A stretch of DNA of 64,000 nt from a candidate division WS6 bacterium GW2011_GWF2_39_15. GTDB taxonomy: Bacteria > Patescibacteriota > Dojkabacteria > SC72. Location: positions 492,208 through 556,207 of the forward strand of contig LBWK01000001.1 in the NCBI GenBank assembly GCA_000993565.1, in the 5' to 3' direction. The notes beneath the pieces were generated by a model. It searched no databases, was not told where the DNA came from, and saw only the letters and a program-made list of their open reading frames with translations. The position numbers and the translations under genes were made by a program. Shown in pieces: positions 368 to 27,967 of this stretch; position 1 is the stretch's first letter; each line of letters opens with the position of its first letter.

Positions 368-1258
368 ATGAACGCAGTCAAAAACAGCGAGTTTGCACAG
401 CTTCACAGAACATTTACAGATGAGCTTAAGCAAAAGAGCAGGTCTGAATCTACCGTTATAGCGTATGCTAAAGACATCGAGCAGCTTCTCAATTTTTTCA
501 CAACTCGAGCAATAGAGACAATCAAAAAGACCGGTATTGAGGACTTAGAGGCATATAAGACATACTTGCAGGATAACAACTACACTCCCAAGAGTATTTC
601 GAGAAAAATCAACAGTACAAGAACATTCTATAGATTCCTTCTTGAAGCCAATATTATCCAGGAGAACCCTTCAGACAAACTTTCACATCCTAAATTCGAA
701 GTTAAGCCTCCAAGAGTCCTAACCGAAATGGAGTATAGAGCATTAAGAGATGTAAGCCGTGTTGATACAAGATTATATTCAATCATTGAGCTTCTTTTGC
801 AAACCGGAATTAGAATCGGAGAGCTTGCTGCATTAACTCTTGACGATGTGAGAACATCAACCGAAAGTAAGATACCATACCTTTATATCAAGCCGGCAGG
901 CAGCCACCCAGCAAGAAAGGTTCCTCTGAATAAGTCCGCATCAGCCGCAATTGAAGAGTATAAGAAGATAAGACCTGAGAGCGAAGACGAAACCTTATTT
1001 ATAACAAAGAACGGACGTCCCCTACTCGTCAGAAATATAAGAACAACAATAGATAAAGCCTTTGAAAAGGCCGGTATTAAAAATGCCAAAGTTAATGATC
1101 TCAGAAATACTTTCATAGCACATCATCTTTCAAACGGTGTATCATTGGTAACCGTATCAAAACTGGTAGGACACAAGAGATTATCAACTACAGAGAAGTA
1201 TCTGAATCTTCTAAATAACAAGCAGGAGGATCAGGAAAAAGATTTGAAAGAGCTATAA
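368..1258 (+). CDS. Tyrosine site-specific recombinase, XerC/XerD family
   Basis: 296 aa. The N-terminal SAM-like core-binding region (STVIAYAKDIEQLLNFF) and the C-terminal catalytic box (RNTFIAHHLSNGVSLVTVSKLVGHKRLSTTEKYLNL) match the Xer/phage-integrase R..H..R..Y signature. Confidence 0.85.
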   Translation: MNAVKNSEFAQLHRTFTDELKQKSRSESTVIAYAKDIEQLLNFFTTRAIETIKKTGIEDLEAYKTYLQDNNYTPKSISRKINSTRTFYRFLLEANIIQENPSDKLSHPKFEVKPPRVLTEMEYRALRDVSRVDTRLYSIIELLLQTGIRIGELAALTLDDVRTSTESKIPYLYIKPAGSHPARKVPLNKSASAAIEEYKKIRPESEDETLFITKNGRPLLVRNIRTTIDKAFEKAGIKNAKVNDLRNTFIAHHLSNGVSLVTVSKLVGHKRLSTTEKYLNLLNNKQEDQEKDLKEL

Positions 1259-2741: not shown

Positions 2742-2818
2742 TGGTGGGGGTGGGCGGAATCGAACCGCCGACATCGGCTTTATAAGAACCGCGCTCTAAC
2801 CGACTGAGCTACACCCCC
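2742..2818 (-). tRNA. tRNA-Ile with anticodon UAU (TAT in DNA), CCA encoded
   Basis: Reverse complement GGGGGTGTAGCTCAGTCGGTTAGAGCGCGGTTCTTATAAAGCCGATGTCGGCGGTTCGATTCCGCCCACCCCCACCA folds as a 77-nt cloverleaf. It has a 7-bp acceptor stem, D-arm GCTC/GAGC, anticodon stem CGGTT/AGCCG, loop CTTATAA and T-arm GGCGG-TTCGATT-CCGCC. The body resembles bacterial tRNA-Ile. Confidence 0.75.
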
Positions 2819-2875: not shown

Positions 2876-5419
2876 TTATCGCAGAGTCAAAGGAGGTGCC
2901 CCGTCTCCACCTGCTGAAGCTCCTTCAGGAGTAGCAAGATCTGCTCTCTGATTAATCTCCTGCTCCACAACTTTAACATCTCTACCATATTTAAGCCTCG
3001 ATAAATCCTTTATCTTCTTTGAAATCTCTTTATTCACAGGCAGTTCAAATCCTGACTGAGGATAGTTAGGCCCGTAAGAAGAATCAAGGGAGAATGGAGA
3101 TGGATACTTACCATCACAGATAAGTTTTACATACCAGTGAAGGTTAGCCTGGTTCATAAGGTCATTAGCCGTAAATATCGGCTCGTATTGAGACTCCAAG
3201 AACTTAGCATCTTCCGGACCTGTTCTTGCAATCATCAAGGTTCCTACGTTACCGAAAATAGCTGCTTTAACATGCTCTTCCATCTGAGCAATGTACTGGT
3301 TGGCAACCGTAAGGTTGAGGCGATACTTTCTAGCTTCAGATAGAATGGAAGCAAACTCTTCCGTAGCAAAGTTCTGAAACTCATCAACATAGAAGAAGAA
3401 ATCCCTTCTCTCCTCTTCCGGAATATCTTCACGGGAAAGGGCTGCTGCTATCATTTTAGGAATAAGCAAAGTCCCCAGGAACTGCATATTCTCCTCACCG
3501 ATAAGACCTTTGGAAAGGTTAACAATAAGGATTTTTCCGCTATCCATAACCTCTCTCATATTAAATGAAGATTGTGACTGCCCTATAATATTTCTAACTG
3601 CAAGGTTGGTTACAAAACGGTCAAACTTGGAGGTAATATAACCCAGTGTCTCGGATTTGTGGAAGTCGCTTGTCTTGGCAATCTGGTCCGTCCAGAACCT
3701 CTTGACCATATCATCCTTAATCAAAGGCATCCATTTCTCATCCACCCACTTCTGATCGGTAAGAATACGGAGAACTTCAACAAAGGTAGATCCATGAACC
3801 GACATAGCAGTAAGCATTGCGTTACGAACCGACCTCTCAAGAATAGGTCCTACGATTCCCTGGTTATGAGGGTCAAACAGCTTTTTAAGAAGTCCTATAA
3901 ATCCATTAACGATCCTATGTTTATCCTGCTCATCCGTAAACTCCATGAGATTAAAACCGAACGGCCTCTCAAAGTCAGAAACGTCGAAATAGATAACATC
4001 CTCTGCCCTCTCATGCGGAATACGGTCCAGCACCATCTGTGCGGTCTGTCCGTGCGGATCTATAAAACATACTCCGTCCCCATTATAAATATCCTGCATT
4101 ATCATTCTCACCTGAAGCCATGATTTACCTGAACCTGTCTGTCCAAGAATATATGCATGTCTTCTTCTATCATCTCTCTTAAAACAGATTCTCTTTCTCT
4201 TTCCCCTAAAAATATTGTCGCCTATCCATACCGTATCCTTGGAGTTAACCTCTGAGCTTATCCAGTTGGCAGCAGGAGCTTCTTTGGCCAACAGCCAGTT
4301 TATATTAGGAGTAGTTATATTCTTGTTCGGGAAGTGATACAGCGAAGCCAGCTCTTCAATATTTAGAATAGAGCCACTCTTCAACGGCATTCTTCTGAAT
4401 ATAACATCATTCATAAAATCCCTACCCTTAAGCTTGTTAAGTTTCTCTTTCTTAAACTCATTAATACCAGGGTTAGCAAACTGATCAAACGCCCCCACAA
4501 TATTATTCAAGTGCATATTAGCGATCTCAATATCAGATGCAGCTGTAACTATTCTTATTGCTGTCCTAAAACCAATCTTAGAAGTCTTTTTACTAATTGC
4601 CTGAAGCTGTTCCTGACTTACTCCAATCCTCTTTTTTTCAGGATCAGAGTTGGTTTCCTCAACTCTTTGAACAAACTTTCTGCCATTCTTCTGCCACTTG
4701 CTCCCCGCTGGTGTTATTACAAGCTGAATCATAGCTCCCTCTTTATCCTCCATCTTGCTTAAAGTACTTAATACATTGGCAATTGGGTCACCGGAAAAAT
4801 CTTCTGCAACTTTCATAGGGTAGTACGACTCATCAGTTTGTACCAAACTTGCATATGCAACTTTGGAGTTCTCATCAAAAATATTGTACTCATCAGAAAC
4901 TTCTATCTGAGCTTCCTGATACGACCCAAGGATCTGTTTTTCAACCAGATCGGCAAGCTTCTTCGATGCATGAACGTAAAAACGTATTTCACCAGGAAGC
5001 CCTACTATTTCAAAGCTGATGCTATTACCCACAGTTAAATATTTCTGAATACCTTTCCCTATCCCGCCGATTCCGTAAAGGTTGGCAAACATCTGTTCGG
5101 CAACTCCGACTTCAATCTCATTTCCTCTTGGCGCCCTAATCTCCATCAGTACTCCGCGGGAACTTTTCTCATCACGATCCTTTCTTTTAAGAAAATTGGA
5201 GTAGTAGTAGAGAAGAGCTAATACACTACCTACAACCATGGCAAGCACAAATATCCATGTAAAGACACTCAAAAAGGATACCCCAAAGGTGGAATCGTCG
5301 ATATTTGAATAAGAATCATCAGGATAATTAACACTTTCACCTGGGGTAACTTCACCAGGTTGAATAGGCCCAACAGTTTGCGAGTATATTAGGTTAGTAT
5401 AATCGAGAGCAGTTCGCAT
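2876..5419 (-). CDS. Type IV secretion system ATPase of the VirB4/VirD4 (TraC/TraG) superfamily, with an N-terminal membrane anchor
   Basis: 847 aa. The N-terminal hydrophobic stretch FGVSFLSVFTWIFVLAMVVGSVLALLYYY could be one or two TM helices. Walker A is YILGQTGSGKSW. The Walker B region FFFYVDEFQNF has a DEF motif of coupling-protein type; canonical VirB4 has DEAW. The size is closer to VirB4. Confidence 0.7.
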   Translation of the reverse strand: MRTALDYTNLIYSQTVGPIQPGEVTPGESVNYPDDSYSNIDDSTFGVSFLSVFTWIFVLAMVVGSVLALLYYYSNFLKRKDRDEKSSRGVLMEIRAPRGNEIEVGVAEQMFANLYGIGGIGKGIQKYLTVGNSISFEIVGLPGEIRFYVHASKKLADLVEKQILGSYQEAQIEVSDEYNIFDENSKVAYASLVQTDESYYPMKVAEDFSGDPIANVLSTLSKMEDKEGAMIQLVITPAGSKWQKNGRKFVQRVEETNSDPEKKRIGVSQEQLQAISKKTSKIGFRTAIRIVTAASDIEIANMHLNNIVGAFDQFANPGINEFKKEKLNKLKGRDFMNDVIFRRMPLKSGSILNIEELASLYHFPNKNITTPNINWLLAKEAPAANWISSEVNSKDTVWIGDNIFRGKRKRICFKRDDRRRHAYILGQTGSGKSWLQVRMIMQDIYNGDGVCFIDPHGQTAQMVLDRIPHERAEDVIYFDVSDFERPFGFNLMEFTDEQDKHRIVNGFIGLLKKLFDPHNQGIVGPILERSVRNAMLTAMSVHGSTFVEVLRILTDQKWVDEKWMPLIKDDMVKRFWTDQIAKTSDFHKSETLGYITSKFDRFVTNLAVRNIIGQSQSSFNMREVMDSGKILIVNLSKGLIGEENMQFLGTLLIPKMIAAALSREDIPEEERRDFFFYVDEFQNFATEEFASILSEARKYRLNLTVANQYIAQMEEHVKAAIFGNVGTLMIARTGPEDAKFLESQYEPIFTANDLMNQANLHWYVKLICDGKYPSPFSLDSSYGPNYPQSGFELPVNKEISKKIKDLSRLKYGRDVKVVEQEINQRADLATPEGASAGGDGAPPLTLR

Positions 5420-5473
5420 TTGCTAATCGAGATAGATTATTATAGAAAGAATAGCATAAAAAGCCCTTATTTT

Positions 5474-6046
5474 CTATTCGCTCAGAATAGCAAAAATCTT
5501 TTTAATAAGGGTTGCGGCCCATGTTTTGCCATCTTCTACTTCACCTGTTTCTGAAATTTCTTTTGAGTTTCTTGCCACATTATCATCTACCTGATAGCCG
5601 AAAAGCGTAAATGTCTGAGTATTGGCATGCGAAGCTGTCTCCTCCGCTATTCTTGCCTTCTCCTCTGCAGAGACCTGAGGCTGCTCAGGTTTAACTTCTT
5701 CCAAGCTCTCTTTTTCCTTAACCTCACTAACTGCCTTTGCAAACTCTCTTGATTCATCACTAACTTCGTTTATCTTTTCGACAGTCGGGGCTGATACCTC
5801 TTTAACAGCTTCATCTGCTTCTAACGGAGTTTGGGAGCTTTGAACAATCTGCTCTTGAGGCTTAGGACCTAAATATTTATCTAAGATATTATTCTGTCGA
5901 AGAATATCCTTCTTCTGATCAAGGGTAAGAGTAGTCCAGACACCCTCAGGAAGTATGCCTACAAGCTCTTTAGGAAGAAGGTGAAGCCATTTCCCCTCCT
6001 CTGATCTTTTAACCTCTAAATTGTTTGCTATAGGCGTATCATTCAT
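5474..6046 (-). CDS. Hypothetical acidic, Glu/Lys-rich protein
   Basis: 190-aa ORF directly downstream of smpB in the transcription direction. It has a low-complexity acidic centre and no recognisable domain. Confidence 0.45.
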   Translation of the reverse strand: MNDTPIANNLEVKRSEEGKWLHLLPKELVGILPEGVWTTLTLDQKKDILRQNNILDKYLGPKPQEQIVQSSQTPLEADEAVKEVSAPTVEKINEVSDESREFAKAVSEVKEKESLEEVKPEQPQVSAEEKARIAEETASHANTQTFTLFGYQVDDNVARNSKEISETGEVEDGKTWAATLIKKIFAILSE

Positions 6047-6051
6047 ACGGT

Positions 6052-6495
6052 CTATTTTACCATATACTTTAGCTTGTCTCTATGGAGTTCTCTATCCAGG
6101 TCCCTCTCTTTCTGAACGTTCTTTTTTTCATAGGTTTTCTTTCCTCTTCCTACTCCTACAAGTACTTTAGCTCTTCCATGCTTAAAGTACATTTTAAGTG
6201 GAACTAGAGTCCCTCCCCACTGCTTACTCTTACTGGCAAGCTGGATCAGCTCTTTTCTGTGTACAAGCAATTTGCGTGTTTTTTTGGAATCATATTTGGG
6301 GTCATTTGCATATTTAAATCTCGCGATATCTGCATTAATAAGGAAAAGCTCCTCCCCAATTACTTTAACAAAAGAATCTTTAAGATCAACCCTGCCGTCC
6401 CGTATCGACTTAACCTCAGCCCCTGTAAGAATTATACCGGCCTCAACGGTCTCTTTGATGTCGTAATTGAATTTTGCTTTACGGTTTTCTAACAT
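6052..6495 (-). CDS. smpB: SsrA-binding protein SmpB
   Basis: 147 aa. NRKAKFNYDIKETVEAGIILTGAEVKSIRDGRVDLKDSFV...DPKYDSKKTRKLLVHRKEL...GGTLVPLKMYFKHGRAKVLVGVGRGKK matches the SmpB consensus over its whole length. Confidence 0.9.
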   Translation of the reverse strand: MLENRKAKFNYDIKETVEAGIILTGAEVKSIRDGRVDLKDSFVKVIGEELFLINADIARFKYANDPKYDSKKTRKLLVHRKELIQLASKSKQWGGTLVPLKMYFKHGRAKVLVGVGRGKKTYEKKNVQKERDLDRELHRDKLKYMVK

Positions 6496-6513
6496 GCAGG
6501 AATTATACCACTA

Positions 6514-8841
6514 CTAGTTGATATTCACCTTCCAAACTACTGTGCCATCCAGAATATATGCCTGATTCTCCTGAGAATCTACAACCAGGTCTGCAACATT
6601 TTTAAAAGCCTCCTTCTGATCACCACGGTATTGGTACTCATTTATAAGAACCATTTCGTTAGGATGTCTCAGATCTCCTCCTCCTTCTTTCGGTTTTTCG
6701 AACACCAGCATTCTATTCTTCTCCCCTGACTCAAAGACATAAAGAAGGTTATCAAGCGTAGCCCCCGTATAACCAGCAATCGGACTCTCTACTTCCGGAA
6801 TTGGCCCCGATACCGTCACAGGAGACTTATCAACCTTCCCAGTGCCGTAGTTATATGAGAACCTTTCCAGTCCAGTTGTTAAGACATATATTGCCAAATC
6901 CCCGAAGAAATCCTGGGAACCGACAAAAGTATCGGAAGAGATATACACAAAAGGAAGTGAGTATCCCCCACCTGTGAAAGTAGCTTTGTATATTGCCTTT
7001 TCAGATTGGCTCAAGAGATAGATATTATCATTCTGAGTAAATACAGCAAACTCAGCCACCGTCCCTACACCCAAATCATCAGCCCCCAAACCAGTGAGAG
7101 ATTGGAAGTCTTTGTTATTTCTATTGTTATCAAACTGAGATCTTACTACCCCTGCTACGTCATCATAAACATAGACCCCTTTTGCTCCTATATCAACAAA
7201 TCTCGGTGACTGAAGAACTCCATCCTTATCCGGCAGTTTTGTAACCTTTTTGTCAAAAAGATTTATTTTATACACAGCCTTTAAACCATTATCAACTACG
7301 TAGAGAAACTCGTTTTGGAACTCATCCTTGTCAGTGGTAATATCACTCGGTTTAGATTCTGAACCTAAAGCAATGCGAGTGCTCATAAACGTCTCTATGC
7401 TACCATCTTTTTCACTTACCCAAATCCTTTTGGATACCTTATCATCAATTTCTGATAGCTGAGATTTAATCTCATTCAACTTTTTCCCATCGGTAACAGA
7501 CAACTCCTTCCCAGCCAGTTTCTTAAGTTCCTCATTTGACTGGAAAAGATAATTCTCTGCTGATTCCACATCAGCAGGTAGGCTTGATTCTGCCTGCTTA
7601 ACAAGGCTATCTACCGTACTAAATACTGCATTTGCCGTCTTACTCAATTCCCGAGCTTCTTTCGCTTGGATACTCAACTTCACACCTCCTAACACCACAA
7701 CAACGAGAAGGACAAGAAGAATGATAATCCCAAATCTCTTGCCTCTCACTCCCGATTCCCTGTACCCATCAATCTTCATCCCATACGCTGACTGGCCGCC
7801 AGTAAGTTTCATAGCTGACAATTTGGCTTTAATTCGTTTGTACCAAAGCTTTCTCCCATACTTATCATCAAACAGCCTCCAAAGCACCTGCCCCAACCTA
7901 TCAAACAATCTTTGAACAAACTTTCCAACCGGTGAAACAATTAGAAGAATAGCGTTCCACACCTTCAAAAGGATGTTTCTCACCTTTCCCCAGATATCAA
8001 CGACCTTAACCCTAAAAGCCTCCCATTTTTCTTTGTCAAATTTGGGCATTGAGATTCTTCCGATTCTCAACACAGGCTTCTTTTCAATTGGATCCGAACT
8101 AACGGCTATCTCTGAAGCCACTTCATCTGCTTTAACCTCTTCTACCTCTGCCTCCTGAGGTGTTGAAATTACTTGTTCAACGGGAGCGGCTACTTCTTCA
8201 ACCTCAGGTTCTTCTTCATAAAACTGAGCACGGGAGAGTATTAAAAGTCCTTCACCTGGGCTCAAATGATCTGACAATTTTTCTAACCTTCCCGTCCATT
8301 CTTCACCCGTAATTTTACCCACAAAAGAGCTGAATAGTCCCTGAGAACTTATAATGACCTTATCATTCTGCCCTAATGCAAAACTCCCTGCTACAACCCT
8401 ATTTTTATTTAATATCTCTGATATATTTACAAAGTTCTCCCCTTTGTTCACAAATACTTCCTGCTCTCCAAAAACTCCTAGATACGCAGTAGCGTTCTTC
8501 ACGGCAACAATGCCGAAGCTTAAATCTATACCCTCTTCCTGAACCTTTCTGTCGTTTTTTAAAAGCTCAAGAAGTTTTTTAGAACCGGCCGTTATTGATC
8601 TTTTAACATCTTCAGTAGTTGAAGCCGAATTGGAAGCGGAGTACGTTTCGAGAATCGCCTCCCATACGAATTTTAAGGCAGTAGAAGCATAACCTTCGGG
8701 GGTTTTGGAAACGGTTATAAGAGCATACAACTCTCCTTTTGCCATAGCAGCTTTCCGATCTGTTGGAGCATATTTATACACATTGCTAACGGCCTGAGTA
8801 TCTACATCATCACTGATGTATCTCTTTACATATAAGGGCAT
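6514..8841 (-). CDS. Hypothetical membrane protein: about 380-aa cytoplasmic N-terminal domain, one TM, coiled coil, C-terminal beta-propeller-like repeats
   Basis: 775 aa. TM is FGIIILLVLLVVVVLGGV. The C-terminal third shows repeated blades of the pattern Y-V-x-D...K-x-V-Y-K (YVVDNGLKAVYKINL, VYVYDDVAGVV, IYLLSQSEKAIYKATF, IYVLTTGLERFSY, LYVFESGEKNRMLVF, AYILDGTVVWKVN). Confidence 0.55.
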   Translation of the reverse strand: MPLYVKRYISDDVDTQAVSNVYKYAPTDRKAAMAKGELYALITVSKTPEGYASTALKFVWEAILETYSASNSASTTEDVKRSITAGSKKLLELLKNDRKVQEEGIDLSFGIVAVKNATAYLGVFGEQEVFVNKGENFVNISEILNKNRVVAGSFALGQNDKVIISSQGLFSSFVGKITGEEWTGRLEKLSDHLSPGEGLLILSRAQFYEEEPEVEEVAAPVEQVISTPQEAEVEEVKADEVASEIAVSSDPIEKKPVLRIGRISMPKFDKEKWEAFRVKVVDIWGKVRNILLKVWNAILLIVSPVGKFVQRLFDRLGQVLWRLFDDKYGRKLWYKRIKAKLSAMKLTGGQSAYGMKIDGYRESGVRGKRFGIIILLVLLVVVVLGGVKLSIQAKEARELSKTANAVFSTVDSLVKQAESSLPADVESAENYLFQSNEELKKLAGKELSVTDGKKLNEIKSQLSEIDDKVSKRIWVSEKDGSIETFMSTRIALGSESKPSDITTDKDEFQNEFLYVVDNGLKAVYKINLFDKKVTKLPDKDGVLQSPRFVDIGAKGVYVYDDVAGVVRSQFDNNRNNKDFQSLTGLGADDLGVGTVAEFAVFTQNDNIYLLSQSEKAIYKATFTGGGYSLPFVYISSDTFVGSQDFFGDLAIYVLTTGLERFSYNYGTGKVDKSPVTVSGPIPEVESPIAGYTGATLDNLLYVFESGEKNRMLVFEKPKEGGGDLRHPNEMVLINEYQYRGDQKEAFKNVADLVVDSQENQAYILDGTVVWKVNIN

Positions 8842-8845
8842 GTTT

Positions 8846-9097
8846 TTAACCTACAAGAATTAATATCACAGAGAAAAGACCCCCAACTACAGCAAGCAAA
8901 AGATGTATATATGAAAGAAGAAGCATCGTTTTATTCGAAGAGGTCTTAACTGTATCATTAAGTATCCTTACTCTTAACGTTAAAAGGAAGGAGTATATGA
9001 CATAACCAAATATAATAACAAGGAAGAGGAGTTTAAAAACTCCCTCAGTTCCTGCAATCGGCCAGTTAATTGTATTTATTCCGTCCAAAAAATCCAT
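8846..9097 (-). CDS. Small 2-TM membrane protein, VirB3-sized
   Basis: 83 aa with two hydrophobic helices. The start overlaps the stop of the upstream gene at 9097 (ATGA coupling). Confidence 0.45.
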   Translation of the reverse strand: MDFLDGINTINWPIAGTEGVFKLLFLVIIFGYVIYSFLLTLRVRILNDTVKTSSNKTMLLLSYIHLLLAVVGGLFSVILILVG

Positions 9098-9714
9098 TAT
9101 ATTTGCCCTTTCTGTTTTAATTCAAGCAGATCAAGAAGAGTATCCTGAATATCTCTTGGTCTTGGGACCCCAGTAAACTCAAATTCAGGCTTGGTTCCCG
9201 CAGTCTGAATATACACATCACCATAATCAAAAATACTGCTCAATAACCCGCTTGGAGCATGTGATACATCTTCAATCTTTTCCAACTGTGCTTCCGAAAA
9301 CCTGTGAAAGAGGACATTATTAAAGTCCACATCTATAATTCTCTGGTCAGTAACAATGTTGACTGAGTAGTACCATTTAAGGAAAGTATCTATAGCCGTA
9401 CTAATAGCAAGGAGAAGAAAAAGTGTTCCCACTCCTAAAGCAAATGCAAAATTAAGCCCCTCAATATCTCTGAAAACACTTAGTACAAGCACAGGGGCGA
9501 ACAACAAAACCAGAATCAAAAAATACTGGGGTATAAAAACAGCCGGATGTCTTCTGACTACAAGAACAACACTCTCCCCTTTATCCTGTCCATTAAAAGA
9601 GATATTCGTAGGGAAGACCCCGAAACTCCCTACCCTGTTCGTTCCGGCTTCACTCGAAAGATTTGCTATGAATGATTTTTTCCCTTTTAAGAATTTCTTT
9701 GGTATGTGTCCCAT
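9097..9714 (-). CDS. Membrane-flanked bacterial PH-domain protein (bPH_2/YdbT-like)
   Basis: 205 aa. Two TM helices (FIPQYFLILVLLFAPVLVLSV; LGVGTLFLLLAISTAI), then YYSVNIVTDQRIIDVDF...SGLLSSIFDYGDVYIQTAGTKPEFEFTGVPRP, typical of DUF304/bPH_2. Confidence 0.65.
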   Translation of the reverse strand: MGHIPKKFLKGKKSFIANLSSEAGTNRVGSFGVFPTNISFNGQDKGESVVLVVRRHPAVFIPQYFLILVLLFAPVLVLSVFRDIEGLNFAFALGVGTLFLLLAISTAIDTFLKWYYSVNIVTDQRIIDVDFNNVLFHRFSEAQLEKIEDVSHAPSGLLSSIFDYGDVYIQTAGTKPEFEFTGVPRPRDIQDTLLDLLELKQKGQI

Positions 9715-9823
9715 GCTAGTTCAAGATAGCATAAATACATTAGAAGGACAAGATTAAAGCGATGACATAGATAGACTTTTTTGATATATTACTGATAACA
9801 CAATAAGTTTATCTATAAGACCG

Positions 9824-10315
9824 ATGGCAAAACATAAGGTAGAAACTCTAGGCGAAGACCTCACACTATATTTAGCTGGATTTGACTCGGATAGTAATGA
9901 AAGACCTTTTAAACCGACTCCCGACTCTGCCGTTGATACATCATCTGTGTCACACATTGTTAGAAGCCAGGTTGAACAATATCAGGATGGATTTTACATA
10001 TTCTATCGTGCATCTCAATCTGGAACCGCATTAGATAAAACTCAAAGAATACTTGAGGCCGCTTTAAGGGAAGATTCTTTTGACTTCGTCCTCGGTGGTC
10101 TATATGCTCTAAGACTTCTAGAAGATGATAGCGGAATAGAAGCAATAATGGAAAAGATTTTAGAGCATGTAGACTCAATGAATAGAGGCTCTGGACGTAC
10201 TACACTCTTACAAGCAATTGCCTTGGAACAAGACTTAATCAGGCAGGGAATCATAGAAGCGGATTCATCGACTGCATCTGGTAACTGCAAAATACTAGAT
10301 CTCCTTACAGCCTAA
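9824..10315 (+). CDS. Hypothetical soluble protein
   Basis: 163-aa ORF on the strand opposite the surrounding array. Weakly similar to the next ORF (LGGLYALRLLEDD versus LCGALLALNISMRDED). Confidence 0.45.
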   Translation: MAKHKVETLGEDLTLYLAGFDSDSNERPFKPTPDSAVDTSSVSHIVRSQVEQYQDGFYIFYRASQSGTALDKTQRILEAALREDSFDFVLGGLYALRLLEDDSGIEAIMEKILEHVDSMNRGSGRTTLLQAIALEQDLIRQGIIEADSSTASGNCKILDLLTA

Positions 10316-10391
10316 TTTCCCTATGACTAAAATTCTATCTTTATAATAGATATCAGAGTATACTTCAGCGCTAAGCTATATCATTATAACT

Positions 10392-10871
10392 TTGACTATA
10401 ACCGGAGGCAGTACCTTACACAAAATATACTACGAAGTCCCTCCAAATGCTGTAAATGTTTGTGATATATTAAAGACCCAGATAGGAACGATAAAACAAG
10501 AACACTCAGTCTCTTCTGACCTCTACCTAGACTCAATCATTAGAATCCTTGAAGGAGGAGTTCTCCACACCGATGTAGACAATTTTCGAAACGGGCCGAA
10601 GGATTTGGAACGCACACTCAGACTCTGTGGAGCACTACTAGCATTGAACATATCTATGAGAGACGAAGATCCAGAGAGGAAAGCAAGGTCTACAGAGTAT
10701 TGCTCGAAGATGATAGAAGCTTCGGGAATACTATCTTTAAGACTAAGCAGTTCTCGCCTTGATACAGCACTTGAGATTGTCGCCGGATTTGAACATACTC
10801 TAATAGAACAAAAAGTAATTACAGAAGATGAGGCTGTTGCAGTAAAAATAGTAGAAGCCAGACGCTCTTGA
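10392..10871 (+). CDS. Hypothetical soluble protein, possible paralog of 9824..10315
   Basis: 159-aa ORF. No recognisable domain. Confidence 0.45.
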   Translation: MTITGGSTLHKIYYEVPPNAVNVCDILKTQIGTIKQEHSVSSDLYLDSIIRILEGGVLHTDVDNFRNGPKDLERTLRLCGALLALNISMRDEDPERKARSTEYCSKMIEASGILSLRLSSSRLDTALEIVAGFEHTLIEQKVITEDEAVAVKIVEARRS

Positions 10872-10877
10872 TAGCTC

Positions 10878-12752
10878 CTACTTTTTCTCGATATTTATAA
10901 ATGTTACTCCACTTCCCTGTGGCGGAATCTGGAGATAACCAGGAGCCCGAAGATTATACATAGCCTTGAAATCCGATGCGGATACGGTTAGAACTCCCCT
11001 ATTTGTCCCAAACAATATATTTGTGGTCTGCCCTTTGCTATTAAACGATGCGGCGATCGAAGAGACAACCGTAACAGGACTCTTAAGAAGTGAAGCCAAT
11101 GCCTCTTTTGAATAAGGATTTCCACTCATTCCTGATATGTGACAGTCATTGATGGTAACCGGAATTATTCTTGAATAATCTACACTACCTTTCAACGGAT
11201 CATTATTATTAATAAGCCAGACATTTAGTATATCCGCCATCTCTTTGTTAGAAAGATAATTCCTATTATTCCCCGTTACATCTTTCTTCGAAGAGTTACA
11301 TACCGACCCATTAAGGAGGGTTGACCATGTTTTGTAAAACCAGGGACTATTGCCATAATTAACCCCTTCATAAGCATTGGGAGTCCAGTTACCCGTCCCC
11401 TGCTTATTTGTAGTATCCCATCCGGAAGTATTTAAATACCCTCCCGTAGTAGAAGAAAACTGAAAGTTTCCAGGACCGCCAGCCAATACCCATTTACTAG
11501 TATAATCTACGGCATTCCTCCATGCGGTAGCATTTACCTCCTTTTTGACTACCTGACAGCTTTGACTTGGACATATTGTCGGGCCTCCGCACTCCTTATG
11601 TGTGCTCGAATATCTAATTGCATAACTCCTTGCCGCAACAGACTGTGCTCTAAGAACCTCTGTCGGCCAGCTTGCAGGGACCTCATACAGGTGTTTTACA
11701 TAATCATCAATTGAAAAAGCCTGACAATTAAAAGTCTGTCCATATTCATTAGTTCCGTTAACATATATCTTAGAGGGGACGCCGTAGTTTTTATTCAGTG
11801 TTTCAGCCGGATAGTATGCTTTCAAAATCTGCTCGGCATTCTGCCCGGCTTTTGCCCTTCCATACGCCCCGTACTGGCTCATGCCATTTCTATGCGTGTA
11901 CGCACCAAAAGCAAAAACAGCAAAATTTCCGGAGGCAGCATTTGCCATGAATCCACTTTTTGAGGAAAGGTTATCTGCAGCTCCAGGCACATCACCGACT
12001 CCAAGTATTCCCCCTGCCGCTTTTGCTAGTAGAATCGCCTCTTGAAGCTGAGATATTTCCCCTTTTAAGGCGGTGATATCCGTACCTAGTCTTGTAGATA
12101 ATCCCCGTTTTTTGGACGCCTCTGCGAGCAGTGCATTACGCTGAGCCACCAGATCATTCTTAGACTTTTCCAAACCATTCTTCTCGCTTTCCAAATCTAC
12201 CTTATCCTTTTCTAATTCCATCTTCTCCTGCTTCATTTGTGCATAATTCTGAGAGAGAAGTTTCAGTTTATCAACGTAATCAAAACCGGAAAGTTTTCTA
12301 AGAAAAACCCCTTTTATTATATCCTCCACACTTTTATTCGCTAGTATATATTCCCAAAAACTGAACCGTGAGCTTTTATACAATTGGGCAGCTACGAGAT
12401 CGAGCTTCTCCTGTTCCTTAGATAGCTCACCTTCTTTTTGGGAAATAACATCAGATTTCAGTTTAATTTCTAACTGTGCAGACTTAATATACAAATCAAT
12501 CTCATCTAAAGCATCTTTCATAAGGGAGATCTTTTCATCAACACTCACACTGCTTCTATTTATCTCCGCAATCTCCTTTTTTATCTTATCCAACGCACTC
12601 TCCTTCTCTTTAACCGTCTGACTTTTCTCCTGGACTTCTTGCTCAAGATCATCTATATCTTCCGAGTATATAGGAAAGGAATATACGGTTAATGAATAGA
12701 TCAAGATAATAACAAGCGAGAGGACAGTTTTAATCGTCTTACTTACACACAT
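10878..12752 (-). CDS. Secreted or anchored coiled-coil protein with a C-terminal SpoIID/LytB-type domain (peptidoglycan lytic transglycosylase-like)
   Basis: 624 aa. N-terminal signal/TM (VLSLVIILIYSLTVYS), then about 230 aa of heptad coiled coil. The C-terminal domain carries FAFGAYTHRNGMSQYGAYGRAKAGQNAEQILKAYYP and VAARSYAIRY, matching SpoIID/LytB motifs. Confidence 0.7.
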   Translation of the reverse strand: MCVSKTIKTVLSLVIILIYSLTVYSFPIYSEDIDDLEQEVQEKSQTVKEKESALDKIKKEIAEINRSSVSVDEKISLMKDALDEIDLYIKSAQLEIKLKSDVISQKEGELSKEQEKLDLVAAQLYKSSRFSFWEYILANKSVEDIIKGVFLRKLSGFDYVDKLKLLSQNYAQMKQEKMELEKDKVDLESEKNGLEKSKNDLVAQRNALLAEASKKRGLSTRLGTDITALKGEISQLQEAILLAKAAGGILGVGDVPGAADNLSSKSGFMANAASGNFAVFAFGAYTHRNGMSQYGAYGRAKAGQNAEQILKAYYPAETLNKNYGVPSKIYVNGTNEYGQTFNCQAFSIDDYVKHLYEVPASWPTEVLRAQSVAARSYAIRYSSTHKECGGPTICPSQSCQVVKKEVNATAWRNAVDYTSKWVLAGGPGNFQFSSTTGGYLNTSGWDTTNKQGTGNWTPNAYEGVNYGNSPWFYKTWSTLLNGSVCNSSKKDVTGNNRNYLSNKEMADILNVWLINNNDPLKGSVDYSRIIPVTINDCHISGMSGNPYSKEALASLLKSPVTVVSSIAASFNSKGQTTNILFGTNRGVLTVSASDFKAMYNLRAPGYLQIPPQGSGVTFINIEKK

Positions 12753-12777
12753 ACCCTATTATACAGAAAATCTCTAT

Positions 12778-13098
12778 CTAGTTTCCGAGGAAGTCCAATA
12801 TCAGCTTTAATACACCGCTGAACAGGACAAGAAAGATTAATCCTAATATAGCCCAAGTTAAAGTTCCCTGAGCCTGTTTAACTTTCCCGGGATCACCTGA
12901 AGACATCATCCACATATAACCACCGTAAACAACCATTATCAAAGAGATTAAGGATCCGATAGGGATTAGAAGCTTAAAAACGCTATCAAGAATCCCTCCG
13001 ATCTCGTCTAATCTGGGAGGTGCTGCATATACCGCGTCTGGGACTAGTACCATTGAAAAGAGTGTTAATGAGGTTATAAATCCTTTAATCTTTTTCAT
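12778..13098 (-). CDS. T4SS pilin-like small membrane protein, paralog 5
   Basis: 106 aa. Signal peptide (cleavage near VYA/AP) plus two TM helices. Shared motif YGGYMWMMSSGDPGKVKQAQGTLTWAILGL. Start overlaps the upstream stop at 13098. Confidence 0.6.
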   Translation of the reverse strand: MKKIKGFITSLTLFSMVLVPDAVYAAPPRLDEIGGILDSVFKLLIPIGSLISLIMVVYGGYMWMMSSGDPGKVKQAQGTLTWAILGLIFLVLFSGVLKLILDFLGN

Positions 13099-13376
13099 TA
13101 TAATTGACCCAGTACATTATTTAAAATAAAGCGGATAATAAGGGGAGATATAAATACTATAATCAATCCTATCATAGCGTATATCACAGACTTCTGAGCT
13201 TTCTCAATCTTCCCCTCGTCTCCTACTGATAGTATATACTGAATTCCGGCACTCACCAATACTGCCACGGTAATTAATGCTGAAATCATTATAGCTAGAT
13301 TGAGAGTTCCCTTGACCATATCAATCAATGAACTATACCCCGTATTGTTAAGGGCAGACAGGTCAAAGAGATTCAT
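13098..13376 (-). CDS. T4SS pilin-like small membrane protein, paralog 4
   Basis: 92 aa. Motif AGIQYILSVGDEGKIEKAQKSVIYAMIGL. Confidence 0.6.
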   Translation of the reverse strand: MNLFDLSALNNTGYSSLIDMVKGTLNLAIMISALITVAVLVSAGIQYILSVGDEGKIEKAQKSVIYAMIGLIIVFISPLIIRFILNNVLGQL

Positions 13377-13436
13377 AATAGAGAGAATAAAAATAAGAGG
13401 CAGGAGAGTTTCCCCTCCTGCCTTCCGATTACAACG

Positions 13437-13853
13437 TTAGACTTTCAAAAGCTGTGAAAGTACGAAGTTTACAACCAATACTGAGACAAAACATAGAACC
13501 AGTCCGACAATTGCATATGTAATACCCTTTGTTGCTTTCTCAATCTTTCCATCATCACCAGAAGCAACAATGTACTGAACACCGCTATAAACCAATACAC
13601 CAACAGCAATCAATGCTGCGAGGGCAATTGCAAGGTTTAATGCATTCTTGATAAATCCAATAAGATCGTTACCATTACCTGATGTTACAATTCCATCAAC
13701 AAATCCACTTGCGCTACTTGCTGCCATTACTGTTGCTGCGGCAAAGTATAAAGCTGATCCTAATGTGGATACTGTTGCTCCTACTTTTGTTACTACCTTC
13801 GCTAATTTATTCATTGTTACTACTAATAAAATTAATATGTTATAGGTTGACAC
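13437..13853 (-). CDS. T4SS pilin-like small membrane protein, paralog 3. The likely true start is the internal Met (MNKLAKVV), around 13814
   Basis: 138-aa ORF. Motif YSGVQYIVASGDDGKIEKATKGITYAIVGL. Confidence 0.6.
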   Translation of the reverse strand: MSTYNILILLVVTMNKLAKVVTKVGATVSTLGSALYFAAATVMAASSASGFVDGIVTSGNGNDLIGFIKNALNLAIALAALIAVGVLVYSGVQYIVASGDDGKIEKATKGITYAIVGLVLCFVSVLVVNFVLSQLLKV

Positions 13854-13885
13854 ATTATATTATATGCAGTACCAATCTGCAATAG

Positions 13886-14224
13886 CTAGACCTTTAATAC
13901 TTCGGTTAAAACAAAGATTATTATCATCTTAGCTACGAATATGATGATCATACCTACAATTGCGTTTGTAATAATTTTTTGAGACTGGTCTATTTTATCC
14001 GGATCTCCTGCTGCTGTAATCATAAGAATCCCTCCATATACAAGCAGTCCTACCAACACCAGAGCAGAGAGATTCACAGCGGTATTCACAACTGTCTGAA
14101 CCTTTCCAACCGTTCCCTCTACTGTCGTAAAAGAATCGCTTCCAAAAGGATTACTGATACCAAACCAACTGGCAAAGAGGCCCCCCTTTTTCTCTACATA
14201 CTTTTTTATCTCATTAATTTTCAT
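13886..14224 (-). CDS. T4SS pilin-like small membrane protein, paralog 2. Its N-terminal region is atypically non-hydrophobic
   Basis: 112 aa. Motif YGGILMITAAGDPDKIDQSQKIITNAIVGM. Confidence 0.55.
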   Translation of the reverse strand: MKINEIKKYVEKKGGLFASWFGISNPFGSDSFTTVEGTVGKVQTVVNTAVNLSALVLVGLLVYGGILMITAAGDPDKIDQSQKIITNAIVGMIIIFVAKMIIIFVLTEVLKV

Positions 14225-14242
14225 TTATATCCTATTAAAATA

Positions 14243-14596
14243 TTAAGGATTTAAACCCGGAATATTTAATGTATTCCTTATTAACAATAGTATAGCAACT
14301 GAAAGAGCAATTAAAGCGAATCCAATAACCGCATTAGTAACGACCTCTCTTGCTTCATTCAGCTTCTCTGGATCACCCTGGCTGGTAATCATGTTATATC
14401 CTGCAAACGCAAAGAGAATAATTGCAGAAAGAACCCCCAGCGGAATTGCAAGCTTGACTAAAGCATTTACAAGTGACGGCAGATCCTGAGCATTGGTGAC
14501 CTCTGTAACGTTTCCGGATATCGCATTACTCAACGCATCCGCATAAACAGGCGAAGAAATTGCGTGAAAGATTTTTTCGAGTATGCTCTGTATCAT
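14243..14596 (-). CDS. T4SS pilin-like small membrane protein, paralog 1
   Basis: 117 aa. Motif FAGYNMITSQGDPEKLNEAREVVTNAVIGF. Confidence 0.55.
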   Translation of the reverse strand: MIQSILEKIFHAISSPVYADALSNAISGNVTEVTNAQDLPSLVNALVKLAIPLGVLSAIILFAFAGYNMITSQGDPEKLNEAREVVTNAVIGFALIALSVAILLLIRNTLNIPGLNP

Positions 14597-17606: not shown

Positions 17607-17623
17607 ATACTAAGTATACAATA

Positions 17624-24507: not shown

Positions 24508-24615
24508 ATTATATCACAACAAAAAGAATGTACCCTCAGTCTTAGCCTCCTCTAAATTTACAAAATCTGGACTCTTGCTATAATGAATCAGGATCAAACT
24601 AGATAAGAATAGAAA

Positions 24616-25095: not shown

Positions 25096-25150
25096 GTAGA
25101 AAGCAGGATTATACTCCCTTACTAATATCTCCGTTTTACTTTTATTAAGT

Positions 25151-25759: not shown

Positions 25760-25809
25760 AGAAGATATCAGTTAAGAGGAATCTTTCTTCTGATGCTCTA
25801 TAATATCCT

Positions 25810-26724: not shown

Positions 26725-26726
26725 TA

Positions 26727-27954: not shown

Positions 27955-27967
27955 ACTTCAGAAAAAT

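What the first reader, a model, noticed from the sequence alone, without database searches (positions are those of the whole stretch)
2876..14596. Chromosomally embedded, minimal T4SS-like module interleaved with housekeeping genes
One same-strand array holds most T4SS ingredients, all transcribed in the same direction. These are a VirB4/VirD4-superfamily ATPase (2876..5419), a VirB3-sized 2-TM protein (8846..9097), a bitopic TM/beta-propeller protein that could act as a VirB8/VirB10-like scaffold (6514..8841), a coiled-coil/SpoIID hydrolase (10878..12752) and five VirB2-like pilin paralogs (12778..14596). smpB sits in the middle of the array. nfo and a helicase-nuclease lie immediately upstream, and dnaA/oriC is on the same contig. 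I saw no relaxase, no VirB6-like polytopic protein nearby, and no plasmid or ICE backbone. This points to a core, non-conjugative use such as a DNA-uptake, adhesion or host-interaction pilus, as proposed for ultra-small epibiotic bacteria. It does not look like a mobile conjugation system.
Basis: partly seen in the sequence, partly recalled or inferred. Interest (0 to 1): 0.7.

Follow-up and report, generated by a model that had tools for sequence, protein, structure and literature searches.

The report
Patescibacterial pilin array beside VirD4-like ATPase
This is a conserved chromosomal locus of an ultra-small WS6/Dojkabacteria bacterium that carries five VirB2-type pilin genes, a cell-wall hydrolase, a surface-receptor-like protein and a VirB4/VirD4-superfamily ATPase; it is a lineage-specific version of the non-conjugative type IV secretion genes already described for Patescibacteria, and it is only part of such a machine.

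Summary
The five small ORFs are T4SS_pilin (PF18895) paralogs, 23-28% identical to each other. The 847-aa protein is an active-looking P-loop ATPase of the VirB4/VirD4 clade, not FtsK-like. Sequence profiles favour a coupling-protein (VirD4/TrwB/DotL) motor; its ~330-aa DUF8128 N-domain is family-specific.

Two readings fail. The 83-aa protein is DUF5657, with no VirB3/PrgI signal. The 775-aa protein is a PP2C-fold (probably inactive) domain, a TM helix, a coiled coil and an NHL beta-propeller, so it looks like a receptor, not VirB8/VirB10.

No canonical VirB4, VirB6, PrgI or relaxase was found in the 64 kb.

The window comes from candidate division WS6 bacterium GW2011_GWF2_39_15. The whole gene order, smpB and the flanking Xer recombinase included, recurs in relatives whose ATPase is only 40-63% identical, so the locus is vertically inherited, not mobile. 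In most Microgenomatia the ATPase sits among housekeeping genes without pilins, so its link to the pilus is uncertain.

Chromosomal, relaxase-free T4SS genes with VirB2 arrays in Patescibacteria are already published (Wang 2023; Quinonero-Coronel 2025). Verdict: a new member of a known kind, of moderate interest.

The parts
14243..14596 (-). VirB2-type pilin paralog (first in the direction of transcription), 117 aa
   Evidence: PF18895 T4SS_pilin 1.9e-08, 34.7 bits against a 26.6 cut-off. Two hydrophobic helices.
13886..14224 (-). VirB2-type pilin paralog, 112 aa
   Evidence: PF18895 3.7e-10.
13437..13853 (-). VirB2-type pilin paralog. The ORF is 138 aa. The gene called in the public record is 125 aa, so the start is probably at 13814 (MNKLAKV...). 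A signal-peptide-like leader ends in VMA/AS.
   Evidence: PF18895 9.2e-13, the best of the five. NCBIfam Mbov_0395 pilin-like 1.8e-08. Gene call of 125 aa in L001. A hairpin plus T-tract lies just downstream at 13423-13398.
13098..13376 (-). VirB2-type pilin paralog, 92 aa
   Evidence: PF18895 3.3e-09.
12778..13098 (-). VirB2-type pilin paralog, 106 aa, with a Sec-type signal peptide (…AVYA/AP)
   Evidence: PF18895 1.6e-11 and PF04956 TrbC/VirB2 2e-06. Mbov_0395 pilin-like 1.4e-09.
10878..12752 (-). Membrane-anchored coiled-coil protein with a SpoIID/LytB-type peptidoglycan hydrolase domain, 624 aa. It starts 25 bp after the last pilin gene.
   Evidence: PF08486 SpoIID 9.8e-12. TIGR02669 1.1e-22. 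PDB SpoIID 4rwr. Orthologue in L002 at 32% identity in the same position.
9824..10871 (+). Two opposite-strand ORFs (163 and 159 aa) that interrupt the array. They are a lineage-specific insert and not part of the system.
   Evidence: No Pfam, NCBIfam or PADLOC hits. Absent from the syntenic loci L002, L005, L006 and L007. Not paralogs of each other.
9097..9714 (-). Membrane protein of 205 aa with two TM helices and a bacterial PH (bPH_2, YdbS/YdbT-like) domain
   Evidence: PF03703 at 8e-04, below the cut-off. TM prediction. Orthologue at 37% identity in L002. Kept in 15 loci.
8846..9097 (-). DUF5657 small protein, 83 aa, two TM helices. Its start overlaps the stop of the bPH gene by 1 bp.
   Evidence: PF18901 1.1e-14. 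No VirB3 or PrgI hit. hhalign against PrgI gives probability 0.3%. A similar 2-TM ORF occupies the same slot in the Levybacteria loci.
6514..8841 (-). Bitopic 775-aa protein. From N to C: cytoplasmic PP2C-fold domain (1-205, catalytic motifs not conserved), acidic linker, TM helix (~368-394), coiled coil (395-471), extracellular NHL-type beta-propeller (~480-775).
6052..6495 (-). smpB (tmRNA-binding protein). A housekeeping gene embedded in the operon, and it travels with the 775-aa gene.
   Evidence: PF01668 3.2e-48. The p775-SmpB adjacency is kept in both arrangements.
5474..6046 (-). Small acidic, probably disordered protein (190 aa) with a C-terminal amphipathic helix (…DGKTWAATLIKKIF…). 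Candidate partner of the ATPase.
   Evidence: An ORF in the same position, with a C-terminal [SD]xK[TH]W-helix motif, was seen in the five sequences inspected (window, L055, L013, L015, L078). 31 of 70 upstream ORFs cluster together by phmmer.
2876..5419 (-). 847-aa membrane-anchored ATPase. From N to C: TM helix (~43-77), DUF8128 alpha/beta domain (~88-370), and a VirB4/VirD4-type P-loop motor (~400-760) with a helical insertion (~497-626).
2742..2818 (-). tRNA-Ile (anticodon TAT). Together with ORF 1273-2505 it is lineage-specific DNA between the ATPase and Xer genes.
   Evidence: Absent at this position in L002 and L005.
368..1258 (+). XerC/XerD-like tyrosine recombinase, convergent with the ATPase gene. 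Conserved chromosomal neighbour, not an element integrase.
   Evidence: TIGR02224/TIGR02225 at 1e-46 and 1e-45, below the equivalog cut-offs. Convergent Xer within 3 kb of the ATPase in 33 of 59 loci. Followed by DivIC, EF-P, FtsH and PolA.
14619..18487 (-). Upstream same-strand housekeeping genes: UvrD-family helicase with a PD-(D/E)XK nuclease domain (14619-17606) and nfo (17624-18487). The gaps to the pilin array are 17-22 bp.
   Evidence: The UvrD-to-pilin adjacency is kept in L002, L006 and L007.

Best explanation
The region is a vertically inherited chromosomal locus of a Dojkabacteria (WS6, Patescibacteria/CPR) genome. It encodes part of the Patescibacteria-type, non-conjugative T4SS-derived pilus apparatus.

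Shown:
- Five divergent VirB2-type pilins are followed by a SpoIID-type cell-wall hydrolase.
- A second tightly packed gene string follows: bPH membrane protein, DUF5657, a PP2C-fold/TM/NHL-propeller protein, smpB, a small acidic protein, and a DUF8128 ATPase of the VirB4/VirD4 clade.
- The whole order is conserved down to 40% ATPase identity.
- There is no relaxase and no sign of a mobile element.

Inferred mechanism:
- The pilins enter the membrane through Sec, and some have their leaders cleaved.
- They are polymerised into a VirB2-like filament or conduit.
- The anchored SpoIID hydrolase opens the peptidoglycan for it.
- The NHL propeller of the 775-aa protein binds a ligand on the host or cell surface, and its catalytically degenerate PP2C-fold domain passes that signal to cytoplasmic partners.
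- The membrane-anchored hexameric-type ATPase, with its small upstream partner, supplies energy or substrate. It does this together with a canonical VirB4/VirB6/PrgI set that must be encoded elsewhere in the 869-kb genome, if the genome has one.

The locus is therefore an accessory half of a T4SS-like system. It is not a self-contained minimal T4SS.
For: - Pilins: five PF18895 hits above the cut-off, one also TrbC/VirB2. Paralog identity of 23-28% matches the published average of 25% for patescibacterial VirB2 arrays (PMC12102498).
- Source genome: WS6 GW2011_GWF2_39_15, an 868,911-bp contig.
- Synteny: UvrD, pilins, SpoIID, bPH, DUF5657, p775, SmpB, small ORF, ATPase, then convergent Xer is kept in L002, L006, L007, L009, L032, L051 and L078, where ATPase identity is 40-63%.
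- Orthologues of the envelope proteins are only 32-37% identical where the ATPase is 62% identical. That fits surface exposure.
- The SpoIID-bPH-2TM-p775(-SmpB) block is also next to the ATPase in a different order in four Levybacteria loci. That argues for selection on linkage.
- Composition is uniform across the locus (GC 0.38-0.42).
- In S. epibionticum a six-gene PF18895 array is essential and sits with VirB4, PrgI, VirB6 and lysozyme genes near dnaA (PMC10633639).
Against: - No canonical VirB4, VirB6, PrgI/VirB3 or VirB8 was found in 64 kb or in the 10 kb beyond dnaA. Without them, pilus assembly by this locus alone has no precedent.
- In 41 of 48 loci with at least 9 kb upstream, the ATPase has no pilin gene within about 10 kb. 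In many it lies between NrdR-RNR genes upstream and Xer/DivIC/TrpRS downstream, as annotated in L055.
- The ATPase is unusually conserved for a host-interaction protein.
- According to PMC12102498, the t4cp homologue of S. epibionticum was not essential.
- Operon structure is inferred from spacing only. The promoter and terminator scans are not above chance.
- The 775-aa model is poor outside the N-domain (overall pLDDT 56).
Confidence: 0.55

Rival explanations
1. There are two unrelated modules that are only neighbours. The pilin array (with SpoIID) belongs to a T4SS encoded elsewhere. The DUF8128 ATPase, its small partner, and perhaps the SpoIID and PP2C-fold membrane proteins form a core cell-envelope, division or chromosome-handling function that works next to Xer and DivIC. 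That function would resemble SpoIIIE/FtsK plus SpoIIE plus SpoIID.
For: - A convergent Xer gene lies within 3 kb of the ATPase in 33 of 59 loci, and DivIC follows it.
- Most Microgenomatia loci have the ATPase among housekeeping genes (NrdR, RNR, TrpRS) without pilins.
- The ATPase is very strongly conserved: 62% identity where its neighbours are 32-37% identical.
- A coiled coil joined to a hydrolase is the layout of division hydrolases such as EnvC and PcsB (established knowledge, inference).
- T4CPs and FtsK are related DNA pumps.
Against: - S. epibionticum, a patescibacterium, has a canonical essential FtsK.
- The pilin-to-SpoIID gap is 25 bp, and the whole order is kept down to 40% ATPase identity.
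- Xer is on the opposite strand, so it is not co-transcribed.
Confidence: 0.25
2. The DUF8128 ATPase is itself a divergent VirB4-type assembly ATPase, with a membrane anchor, a VirB4-like N-domain and a motor. With DUF5657 and bPH as membrane partners, the locus would then be a self-sufficient minimal pilus machine that does not need the canonical patescibacterial VirB4.
For: - Foldseek ranks full-length TrwK/VirB4 first (E 1.3e-15, about 880-925 aligned columns), ahead of TrwB at 1.3e-12.
- The length and the domain boundary (motor starting near residue 400 of 847) resemble those of TrwK.
- It is the only ATPase in the conserved array.
Against: - Sequence profiles prefer coupling proteins. 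There are no CagE_TrbE_VirB, AAA_10 or P-loop_TraG hits, whereas true patescibacterial VirB4 proteins give them clearly.
- The TM-score to TrwK is only about 0.3.
- hhalign aligns only the motor to a VirB4 alignment, at 26% probability.
- Five Dojkabacteria rows occur in the stored part of the supplement table, and the two that were read end in 'Yes' in a final column. I take that column to mean VirB4 presence, but no header was seen.
- Most family members are not next to pilins.
Confidence: 0.12
3. The locus is a degraded or integrated conjugative element (ICE), or an anti-phage defence island that uses a HerA/MADS-type ATPase.
For: - A tyrosine recombinase and a tRNA gene lie next to the ATPase.
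- PADLOC mad8 hit at 3.4e-14, plus HerA hits.
Against: - The recombinase scores best against the XerC/XerD models and is syntenic across Dojkabacteria and Microgenomatia.
- No relaxase, no other defence components, and no compositional break.
- At least 593 loci among 185,579 species-representative genomes carry the ATPase, the 80 examined being from candidate-phyla or unclassified MAG contigs, which is the pattern of a core gene.
- Identities fall in step with phylogeny.
Confidence: 0.03

Closest known systems
Patescibacteria chromosomal T4SS with a VirB2-like pilin array (Southlakia epibionticum SEML1_0006-0019, Wang et al. 2023, PMC10633639; survey by Quinonero-Coronel et al. 2025, PMC12102498)
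   Same: - A tandem array of divergent PF18895 pilins (five here, six in S. epibionticum; 2-11 in the survey, averaging 25% identity).
- A peptidoglycan hydrolase next to it.
- Chromosomal, with no relaxase, and on the same replicon region as dnaA.
- The host is an ultra-small candidate-phyla bacterium.
   Different: - Here the array is not next to VirB4, PrgI, TrsD or VirB6.
- It is joined instead to SpoIID (not a lysozyme/peptidase), bPH, DUF5657, a PP2C-fold/NHL receptor, smpB and a DUF8128 coupling-protein-like ATPase.
- None of these partners occurs as a term in the survey's main text.
- dnaA is about 45 kb away.
Type IV coupling proteins (VirD4, TrwB, TraG/TraD, DotL, PcfC)
   Same: - N-terminal membrane anchor.
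- P-loop motor with a helical insertion.
- Pfam T4SS-DNA_transf, TrwB_AAD_bind and TraG-D_C hits above their cut-offs.
- Best PDB sequence matches are DotL and TrwB. TM-score to TrwB is 0.65-0.7, normalised on TrwB.
   Different: - A ~330-aa DUF8128 domain lies between the anchor and the motor.
- There is no relaxase or recognisable substrate.
- Scores are far below the NCBIfam cut-offs (46.8 against 250).
- It behaves as a core gene of Dojkabacteria and Microgenomatia, next to Xer and DivIC.
VirB4 (TrwK of R388; Thermoanaerobacter VirB4 C-terminal domain, 4ag5)
   Same: - Two-domain layout of similar length.
   Different: - No VirB4 sequence-profile hits.
- The patescibacterial VirB4 proper is a different family of ~585 aa (L019, L054).
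Transmembrane Ser/Thr signalling receptors: M. tuberculosis PknD (kinase-TM-NHL propeller) and PstP (PP2C-TM-ectodomain); the PppA phosphatase of the P. aeruginosa T6SS threonine-phosphorylation switch
   Same: The 775-aa protein combines a PP2C fold inside the cell with a PknD-like NHL propeller outside. PppA shows that a PP2C can gate the assembly of a secretion machine.
   Different: - The catalytic PPM motifs are not conserved, so it is probably a pseudophosphatase.
- No kinase or FHA partner was seen in the window.
- A regulatory role is inference only.
VirB2-like pilins of monoderm conjugation systems (Mycoplasma ICE Mbov_0395 family; PrgF of pCF10, bioRxiv 10.64898/2025.12.18.695078)
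   Same: - Small two-helix proteins with a short charged loop.
- The window pilins hit the Mbov_0395 model at 1e-08 to 1e-09.
   Different: - The scores are just below that model's cut-off (37.5 against 40).
- hhalign against PrgF is not significant.
- Those pilins are single genes on mobile elements, next to VirB6 and VirB4.

Membership tests
Type IV secretion system (minimal monoderm set) | VirB4 signature ATPase (CagE_TrbE_VirB / AAA_10 / P-loop_TraG) | tested here: not met
   No such Pfam hit among about 50 of the larger ORFs scanned. A jackhmmer search seeded with PrgJ found patescibacterial VirB4 in L019 and L054 but nothing in the window. The rest of the genome could not be read.
Type IV secretion system (minimal monoderm set) | VirB2-type pilin | tested here: met
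   Five PF18895 hits above the cut-off, one also PF04956.
Type IV secretion system (minimal monoderm set) | VirB6/TrbL polytopic channel protein | tested here: not met
   No hit in the window. The only large polytopic protein, at 54023-55837, is DUF4153. VirB6 is reported as scarce or undetectable by profile in Microgenomatia and Gracilibacteria (PMC12102498), so divergence cannot be excluded.
Type IV secretion system (minimal monoderm set) | VirB3/PrgI small membrane partner of VirB4 | tested here: not met
   The 83-aa protein is DUF5657. It has no VirB3 or PrgI hit in Pfam or NCBIfam. hhalign against PrgI gives probability 0.3%.
Type IV secretion system (minimal monoderm set) | VirB8-like or VirB10-like scaffold | tested here: not met
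Type IV secretion system (minimal monoderm set) | Cell-wall hydrolase (VirB1 role) | tested here: inconclusive
   A hydrolase follows the pilin genes, but it is SpoIID-type and not an SLT, CHAP or lysozyme enzyme. It fits the role, not the family.
Conjugative T4SS / ICE | Relaxase, oriT, and an element integrase with att sites | tested here: not met
   No relaxase profile hit. The recombinase is Xer-like and syntenic across classes. The locus order is inherited vertically. att repeats were not searched for.
Patescibacteria-type chromosomal T4SS (Wang 2023; Quinonero-Coronel 2025) | Array of 2-11 divergent VirB2 (PF18895) genes in a relaxase-free chromosome | tested here: met
   Five genes, 23-28% identical, in a WS6/Dojkabacteria chromosome.
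Patescibacteria-type chromosomal T4SS (Wang 2023; Quinonero-Coronel 2025) | VirB4 of the Patescibacteria clade in the same genome, usually within 20 genes of the other components | not testable with these tools
   It is not in the 64-kb window nor in the 10 kb beyond dnaA. Five Dojkabacteria rows occur in the stored part of the supplement table, and the two that were read end in 'Yes' in a final column. I take that column to mean VirB4 presence, but no header was seen. This genome was not found in the stored part of the table.
Type IV coupling protein (VirD4/TraG/TrwB) | Sequence-profile membership | tested here: inconclusive
   Passes the Pfam cut-offs for PF02534, PF10412 and PF12696. Far below the NCBIfam cut-offs: CD1115 46.8 against 250. 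PDB profile order is DotL, TrwB, HerA, VirB4.
Type IV coupling protein (VirD4/TraG/TrwB) | N-terminal TM anchor, nucleotide-binding domain and all-alpha insertion | tested here: inconclusive
FtsK/SpoIIIE DNA translocase | FtsK_SpoIIIE motor, gamma domain and 4TM N-domain | tested here: not met
PPM/PP2C protein phosphatase (N-domain of the 775-aa protein) | PP2C fold | tested here: met
PPM/PP2C protein phosphatase (N-domain of the 775-aa protein) | Conserved metal-binding Asp motifs (DGxGG, SDG, DN) | tested here: not met
   Only D160 is conserved among 18 family members, and the motifs are not present consistently. No PP2C or SpoIIE Pfam hit.

The most novel reading that the evidence does not exclude
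The DUF8128 ATPase, its small C-terminal-helix partner, and the SpoIID-bPH-DUF5657-PP2C-fold/NHL-receptor cassette form a previously undescribed envelope machine of Dojkabacteria and Microgenomatia, built on a third branch of the VirB4/VirD4 superfamily. It would either assemble the VirB2-type filament under control of a contact-sensing pseudophosphatase receptor, without the canonical VirB4, or move DNA at the division site together with Xer and DivIC.
Probability: 0.15. Interest if true: 0.7.

Novelty: new member of a known kind. Interest (0 to 1): 0.38.

Why it matters
Patescibacteria make up a large share of bacterial diversity and depend on host cells. In the one genetically tractable species, the T4SS-like genes and the pilin array are essential, but what they do is unknown.

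This Dojkabacteria locus adds no new principle. It does show that the pilin array can be separated from VirB4/VirB6 and stably joined to another set of partners: a SpoIID hydrolase, a PP2C-fold/NHL surface receptor, DUF5657, a bPH protein and a widely conserved DUF8128 VirB4/VirD4-type ATPase with a small partner.

These give concrete candidates for missing parts or regulators of the patescibacterial pilus. The ATPase family was found at at least 593 loci among species-representative genomes, and its role (secretion or chromosome handling) is open and testable.

Tried and rejected
- hhalign of the ATPase alignment against single pCF10 PcfC (T4CP) and PrgJ (VirB4) sequences gave equal, meaningless scores. 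Against a three-sequence VirB4 alignment, only the motor aligned, at 26% probability.
- A second homologue search for the 775-aa protein, using an 18-sequence alignment, returned the same six proteins.
The model therefore rests on six sequences, and its propeller is poorly resolved.
- The look-up of the histidine kinase gene, meant to walk past the window end, failed. dnaA was used instead.
- VirB4 elsewhere in the genome could not be checked.
- The strong hairpin after the third pilin gene (13423-13398) was considered as a conserved attenuator that sets pilin stoichiometry. No counterpart exists in L002, and the terminator counts are at chance level.
- An ICE reading was rejected, because the recombinase is a syntenic Xer.
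- The ~800-aa genes upstream of the ATPase in Microgenomatia were suspected to be VirB4 or p775 analogues. The one checked (L055) is a class II ribonucleotide reductase.
- The apparent second ATPase hit in L056 is a 74-aa fragment. L076 carries a true tandem T4CP-like paralog.

Full report
**Observation**

- The five small ORFs at 12778-14596 each exceed Pfam's own threshold for PF18895 (T4SS_pilin). One also matches TrbC/VirB2.
- Each pilin has two hydrophobic helices joined by a short conserved G-D-x-x-K loop. They are only 23-28% identical to each other.
- Two of them also approach the NCBIfam model for the pilin-like protein of Mycoplasma ICEs.
- ORF 10878-12752 carries a SpoIID/LytB domain behind a signal anchor and a ~200-residue coiled coil.
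- ORF 6052-6495 is SmpB.
- 14619-17606 is a UvrD helicase with a PD-(D/E)XK nuclease domain, and 17624-18487 is an Nfo-type endonuclease.
- dnaA (59666-61114) and dnaN are in the window.
- Gene spacing is tight, from -1 to 60 bp, except where two opposite-strand ORFs (9824-10871) interrupt the string.

**Source and inheritance**

The ATPase is 100% identical to a protein of candidate division WS6 (Dojkabacteria) bacterium GW2011_GWF2_39_15, on an 868,911-bp contig.

A Dojkabacteria genome whose ATPase is only 62% identical (L002) has this gene order: UvrD, seven pilins, a diacylglycerol kinase, SpoIID, bPH, DUF5657, a 768-aa protein, SmpB, a small ORF, the ATPase, then a convergent Xer, DivIC, EF-P, FtsH and PolA. 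The envelope proteins are orthologous at 32-37% identity.

A scan of species-representative genomes with the ATPase alignment found at least 593 loci. I called ORFs in 80 of them and labelled them by jackhmmer against the window proteins.

- The full arrangement recurs in every locus that has both the 775-aa homologue upstream and at least 9 kb of upstream DNA (7 of 7). ATPase identity in these loci goes down to 40% (L078).
- The two plus-strand ORFs, the 410-aa ORF at 1273-2505 and tRNA-Ile(TAT) are missing from these relatives, so they are lineage-specific additions.
- Composition is even across the locus.
- The recombinase at 368-1258 scores best against the XerC/XerD models, below their cut-offs. 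A convergent copy lies within 3 kb of the ATPase in 33 of 59 informative loci.
- No relaxase profile hit exists among the ~50 larger ORFs scanned.

The locus is therefore core and vertically inherited, not a mobile element.

**The ATPase**

Its domain order is a hydrophobic anchor (43-77), DUF8128 (PF26449, precomputed annotation), then a P-loop motor with invariant Walker A and B motifs.

- Pfam T4SS-DNA_transf, TrwB_AAD_bind, TraG-D_C and DUF87 all pass their thresholds, though weakly.
- The best NCBIfam match is the VirD4-like CD1115 family (1.9e-12), ahead of VirB4-like CD1110 (7.5e-07). Both are far below their cut-offs.
- Profile search of PDB sequences ranks DotL, then TrwB, then HerA, then VirB4.
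- Foldseek ranks full-length TrwK/VirB4 first, with about 900 aligned columns but a TM-score near 0.3. TrwB comes next, with TM 0.65-0.7 normalised on TrwB.

Genuine patescibacterial VirB4 proteins were recovered by chance in two Microgenomatia loci: L019:1085-2851 and L054:11480-13234, about 585 aa each, with P-loop_TraG, AAA_10 and CagE_TrbE_VirB hits. They are a clearly different family, and nothing like them is in the window.

**The other proteins**

- The 83-aa protein is DUF5657 (1.1e-14). It shows no similarity to VirB3 or PrgI.
- The 205-aa protein has two TM helices and a weak bacterial PH domain.
  - That domain lacks the conserved metal-binding motifs. Only D160 is conserved.
  - Its ectodomain matches the NHL beta-propeller of the PknD sensor (8e-10). 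Distant relatives give weak NHL hits.
  - The family has 456 representative clusters, mostly full-length.
- The 190-aa ORF upstream of the ATPase is acidic and has low sequence complexity. It ends in a [SD]xK[TH]W amphipathic helix, and that motif recurs in the ORF upstream of the ATPase in the four other loci whose sequences I inspected (L055, L013, L015, L078). 31 of 70 such ORFs cluster by phmmer.

**Linkage**

- The block SpoIID, bPH, a 2-TM ORF and the 775-aa homologue (followed directly by SmpB in two of the four) also lies next to the ATPase in four Levybacteria loci. There it is downstream rather than upstream. Linkage that survives rearrangement supports a functional tie between this cassette and the ATPase.
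- Pilins, by contrast, lie within 10 kb of the ATPase in only 7 of 48 informative loci.
- In many Microgenomatia loci the ATPase appears to lie between NrdR, a class II RNR and a cobalamin adenosyltransferase upstream, and Xer, DivIC and TrpRS downstream. This layout was annotated by Pfam only in L055 and inferred from similar ORF lengths in about ten others.
- The tie between the ATPase and the pilus is therefore plausible but not established. A division or chromosome-handling role next to Xer and DivIC remains a serious rival.

**Comparison with what is known**

- Wang et al. 2023 (PMC10633639) showed that in Southlakia epibionticum a chromosomal cluster next to the origin is essential for epibiotic growth. 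It contains VirB4, a PrgI family protein, two VirB6-like proteins, lysozyme/peptidase genes and six PF18895 pilins, and it has no recognisable relaxase or coupling protein.
- Quinonero-Coronel et al. 2025 (PMC12102498) surveyed 3,035 genomes. They found:
  - VirB4 in 2,417 genomes.
  - 441 VirB2 arrays of 2-11 genes, averaging 25% identity and abundant in Microgenomatia and Saccharimonadia.
  - 5,713 VirD4-type homologues, mostly far from virB4.
  - Almost no relaxases.
  - Frequent proximity to dnaA.
- A 2025 review treats these systems as established newcomers to the T4SS superfamily (PMC12857230).

The partners seen here appear not to be described: SpoIID, DUF5657, smpB and Dojkabacteria do not occur as terms in the survey's main text, and no held paper mentions DUF8128.

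S. epibionticum also has an essential pair, a 139-aa ORF followed by an ATPase with a TraM-recognition domain (SEML1_0141/0142). The layout is the same as here. Orthology was not tested.

**Verdict**

The locus holds a T4SS-related pilin array and a VirB4/VirD4-superfamily ATPase in a core, non-mobile setting.
- It is not a nearly complete minimal T4SS, and the VirB3 and VirB8/VirB10 assignments fail.
- The most likely reading (about 0.55) is an accessory half of the patescibacterial T4SS-type pilus apparatus, with a candidate contact-sensing receptor and a dedicated hydrolase.
- Novelty: a new member of a known kind.
- Interest: moderate.

Noticed in passing
window 2742-2818 (-): tRNA-Ile with anticodon TAT, which would read AUA directly (UAU). 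From my own knowledge, not checked here, most bacteria instead use a lysidine-modified CAU tRNA. Together with the Pro-rich, single-TM 410-aa ORF at 1273-2505 it is inserted between the ATPase and Xer genes, compared with related genomes.
   Followed up: partly
window 40855-41264 (-) and 6052-6495 (-): The tmRNA gene has an unusual predicted 29-residue tag (AKNTVNTFLSKVQELGARLTSSLSFSYLG). Its partner gene smpB lies 35 kb away inside the pilin/ATPase locus. smpB stays directly after the 775-aa receptor gene in two of the four rearranged Levybacteria loci (L023, L035).
   Followed up: partly
window about 23900-28500: GC dips to 0.34-0.355. The stretch holds a zeta-toxin-like AAA protein (23986-24507), a protein with the 5-hmdU DNA kinase helical domain (25810-26724, 8.6e-20), and YecM, GDSL lipase and PNPOx-like genes. 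It may be an acquired island, or a remnant of a phage-type DNA-modification module.
   Followed up: no
window 28838-36751 (-): A giant 2637-aa protein with fibronectin type III, DUF2341 and glycine-rich domains. It is probably a surface adhesin, a type reported as essential in Saccharibacteria.
   Followed up: no
window 13398-13423 (-): An 11-bp, GC-rich hairpin followed by a T-tract lies in the 60-bp gap after the third pilin gene. It could act as a partial terminator that raises the dose of the first three pilins. It is not conserved in L002.
   Followed up: partly
window 5474-6046 (-); L055:9504-9899, L013:9428-9799, L015:9499-9963, L078:9394-9951: The small ORF directly upstream of the DUF8128 ATPase ends in a [SD]xK[TH]W amphipathic helix in the five sequences inspected, which span Dojkabacteria and Microgenomatia. 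The essential pair SEML1_0141/0142 in S. epibionticum has the same layout.
   Followed up: partly
window 10878-12752 (-), residues 260-443: The SpoIID domain appears circularly permuted. The motif that is C-terminal in B. subtilis SpoIID (GMSQYGA…ILKAYYP, residues 260-318) comes before the N-terminal motif (…WPTEVLRAQSVAARSYA, residues 344-443).
   Followed up: no
L019:1085-2851 and L054:11480-13234: Canonical patescibacterial VirB4 genes lie 7-9 kb from the DUF8128 ATPase in two Microgenomatia genomes. Each is preceded by a ~218-aa ORF and a ~120-aa ORF with prealbumin/SdrD_B-like hits.
   Followed up: partly
L076:1128-6163: Two tandem T4CP-like paralogs (819 and 858 aa). This fits the roughly two VirD4-type homologues per patescibacterial genome reported in the literature.
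   Followed up: no
window 45935-48406 (-): An 823-aa ORF with no Pfam or NCBIfam hit and no Walker motif noticed. Function unknown.
   Followed up: no
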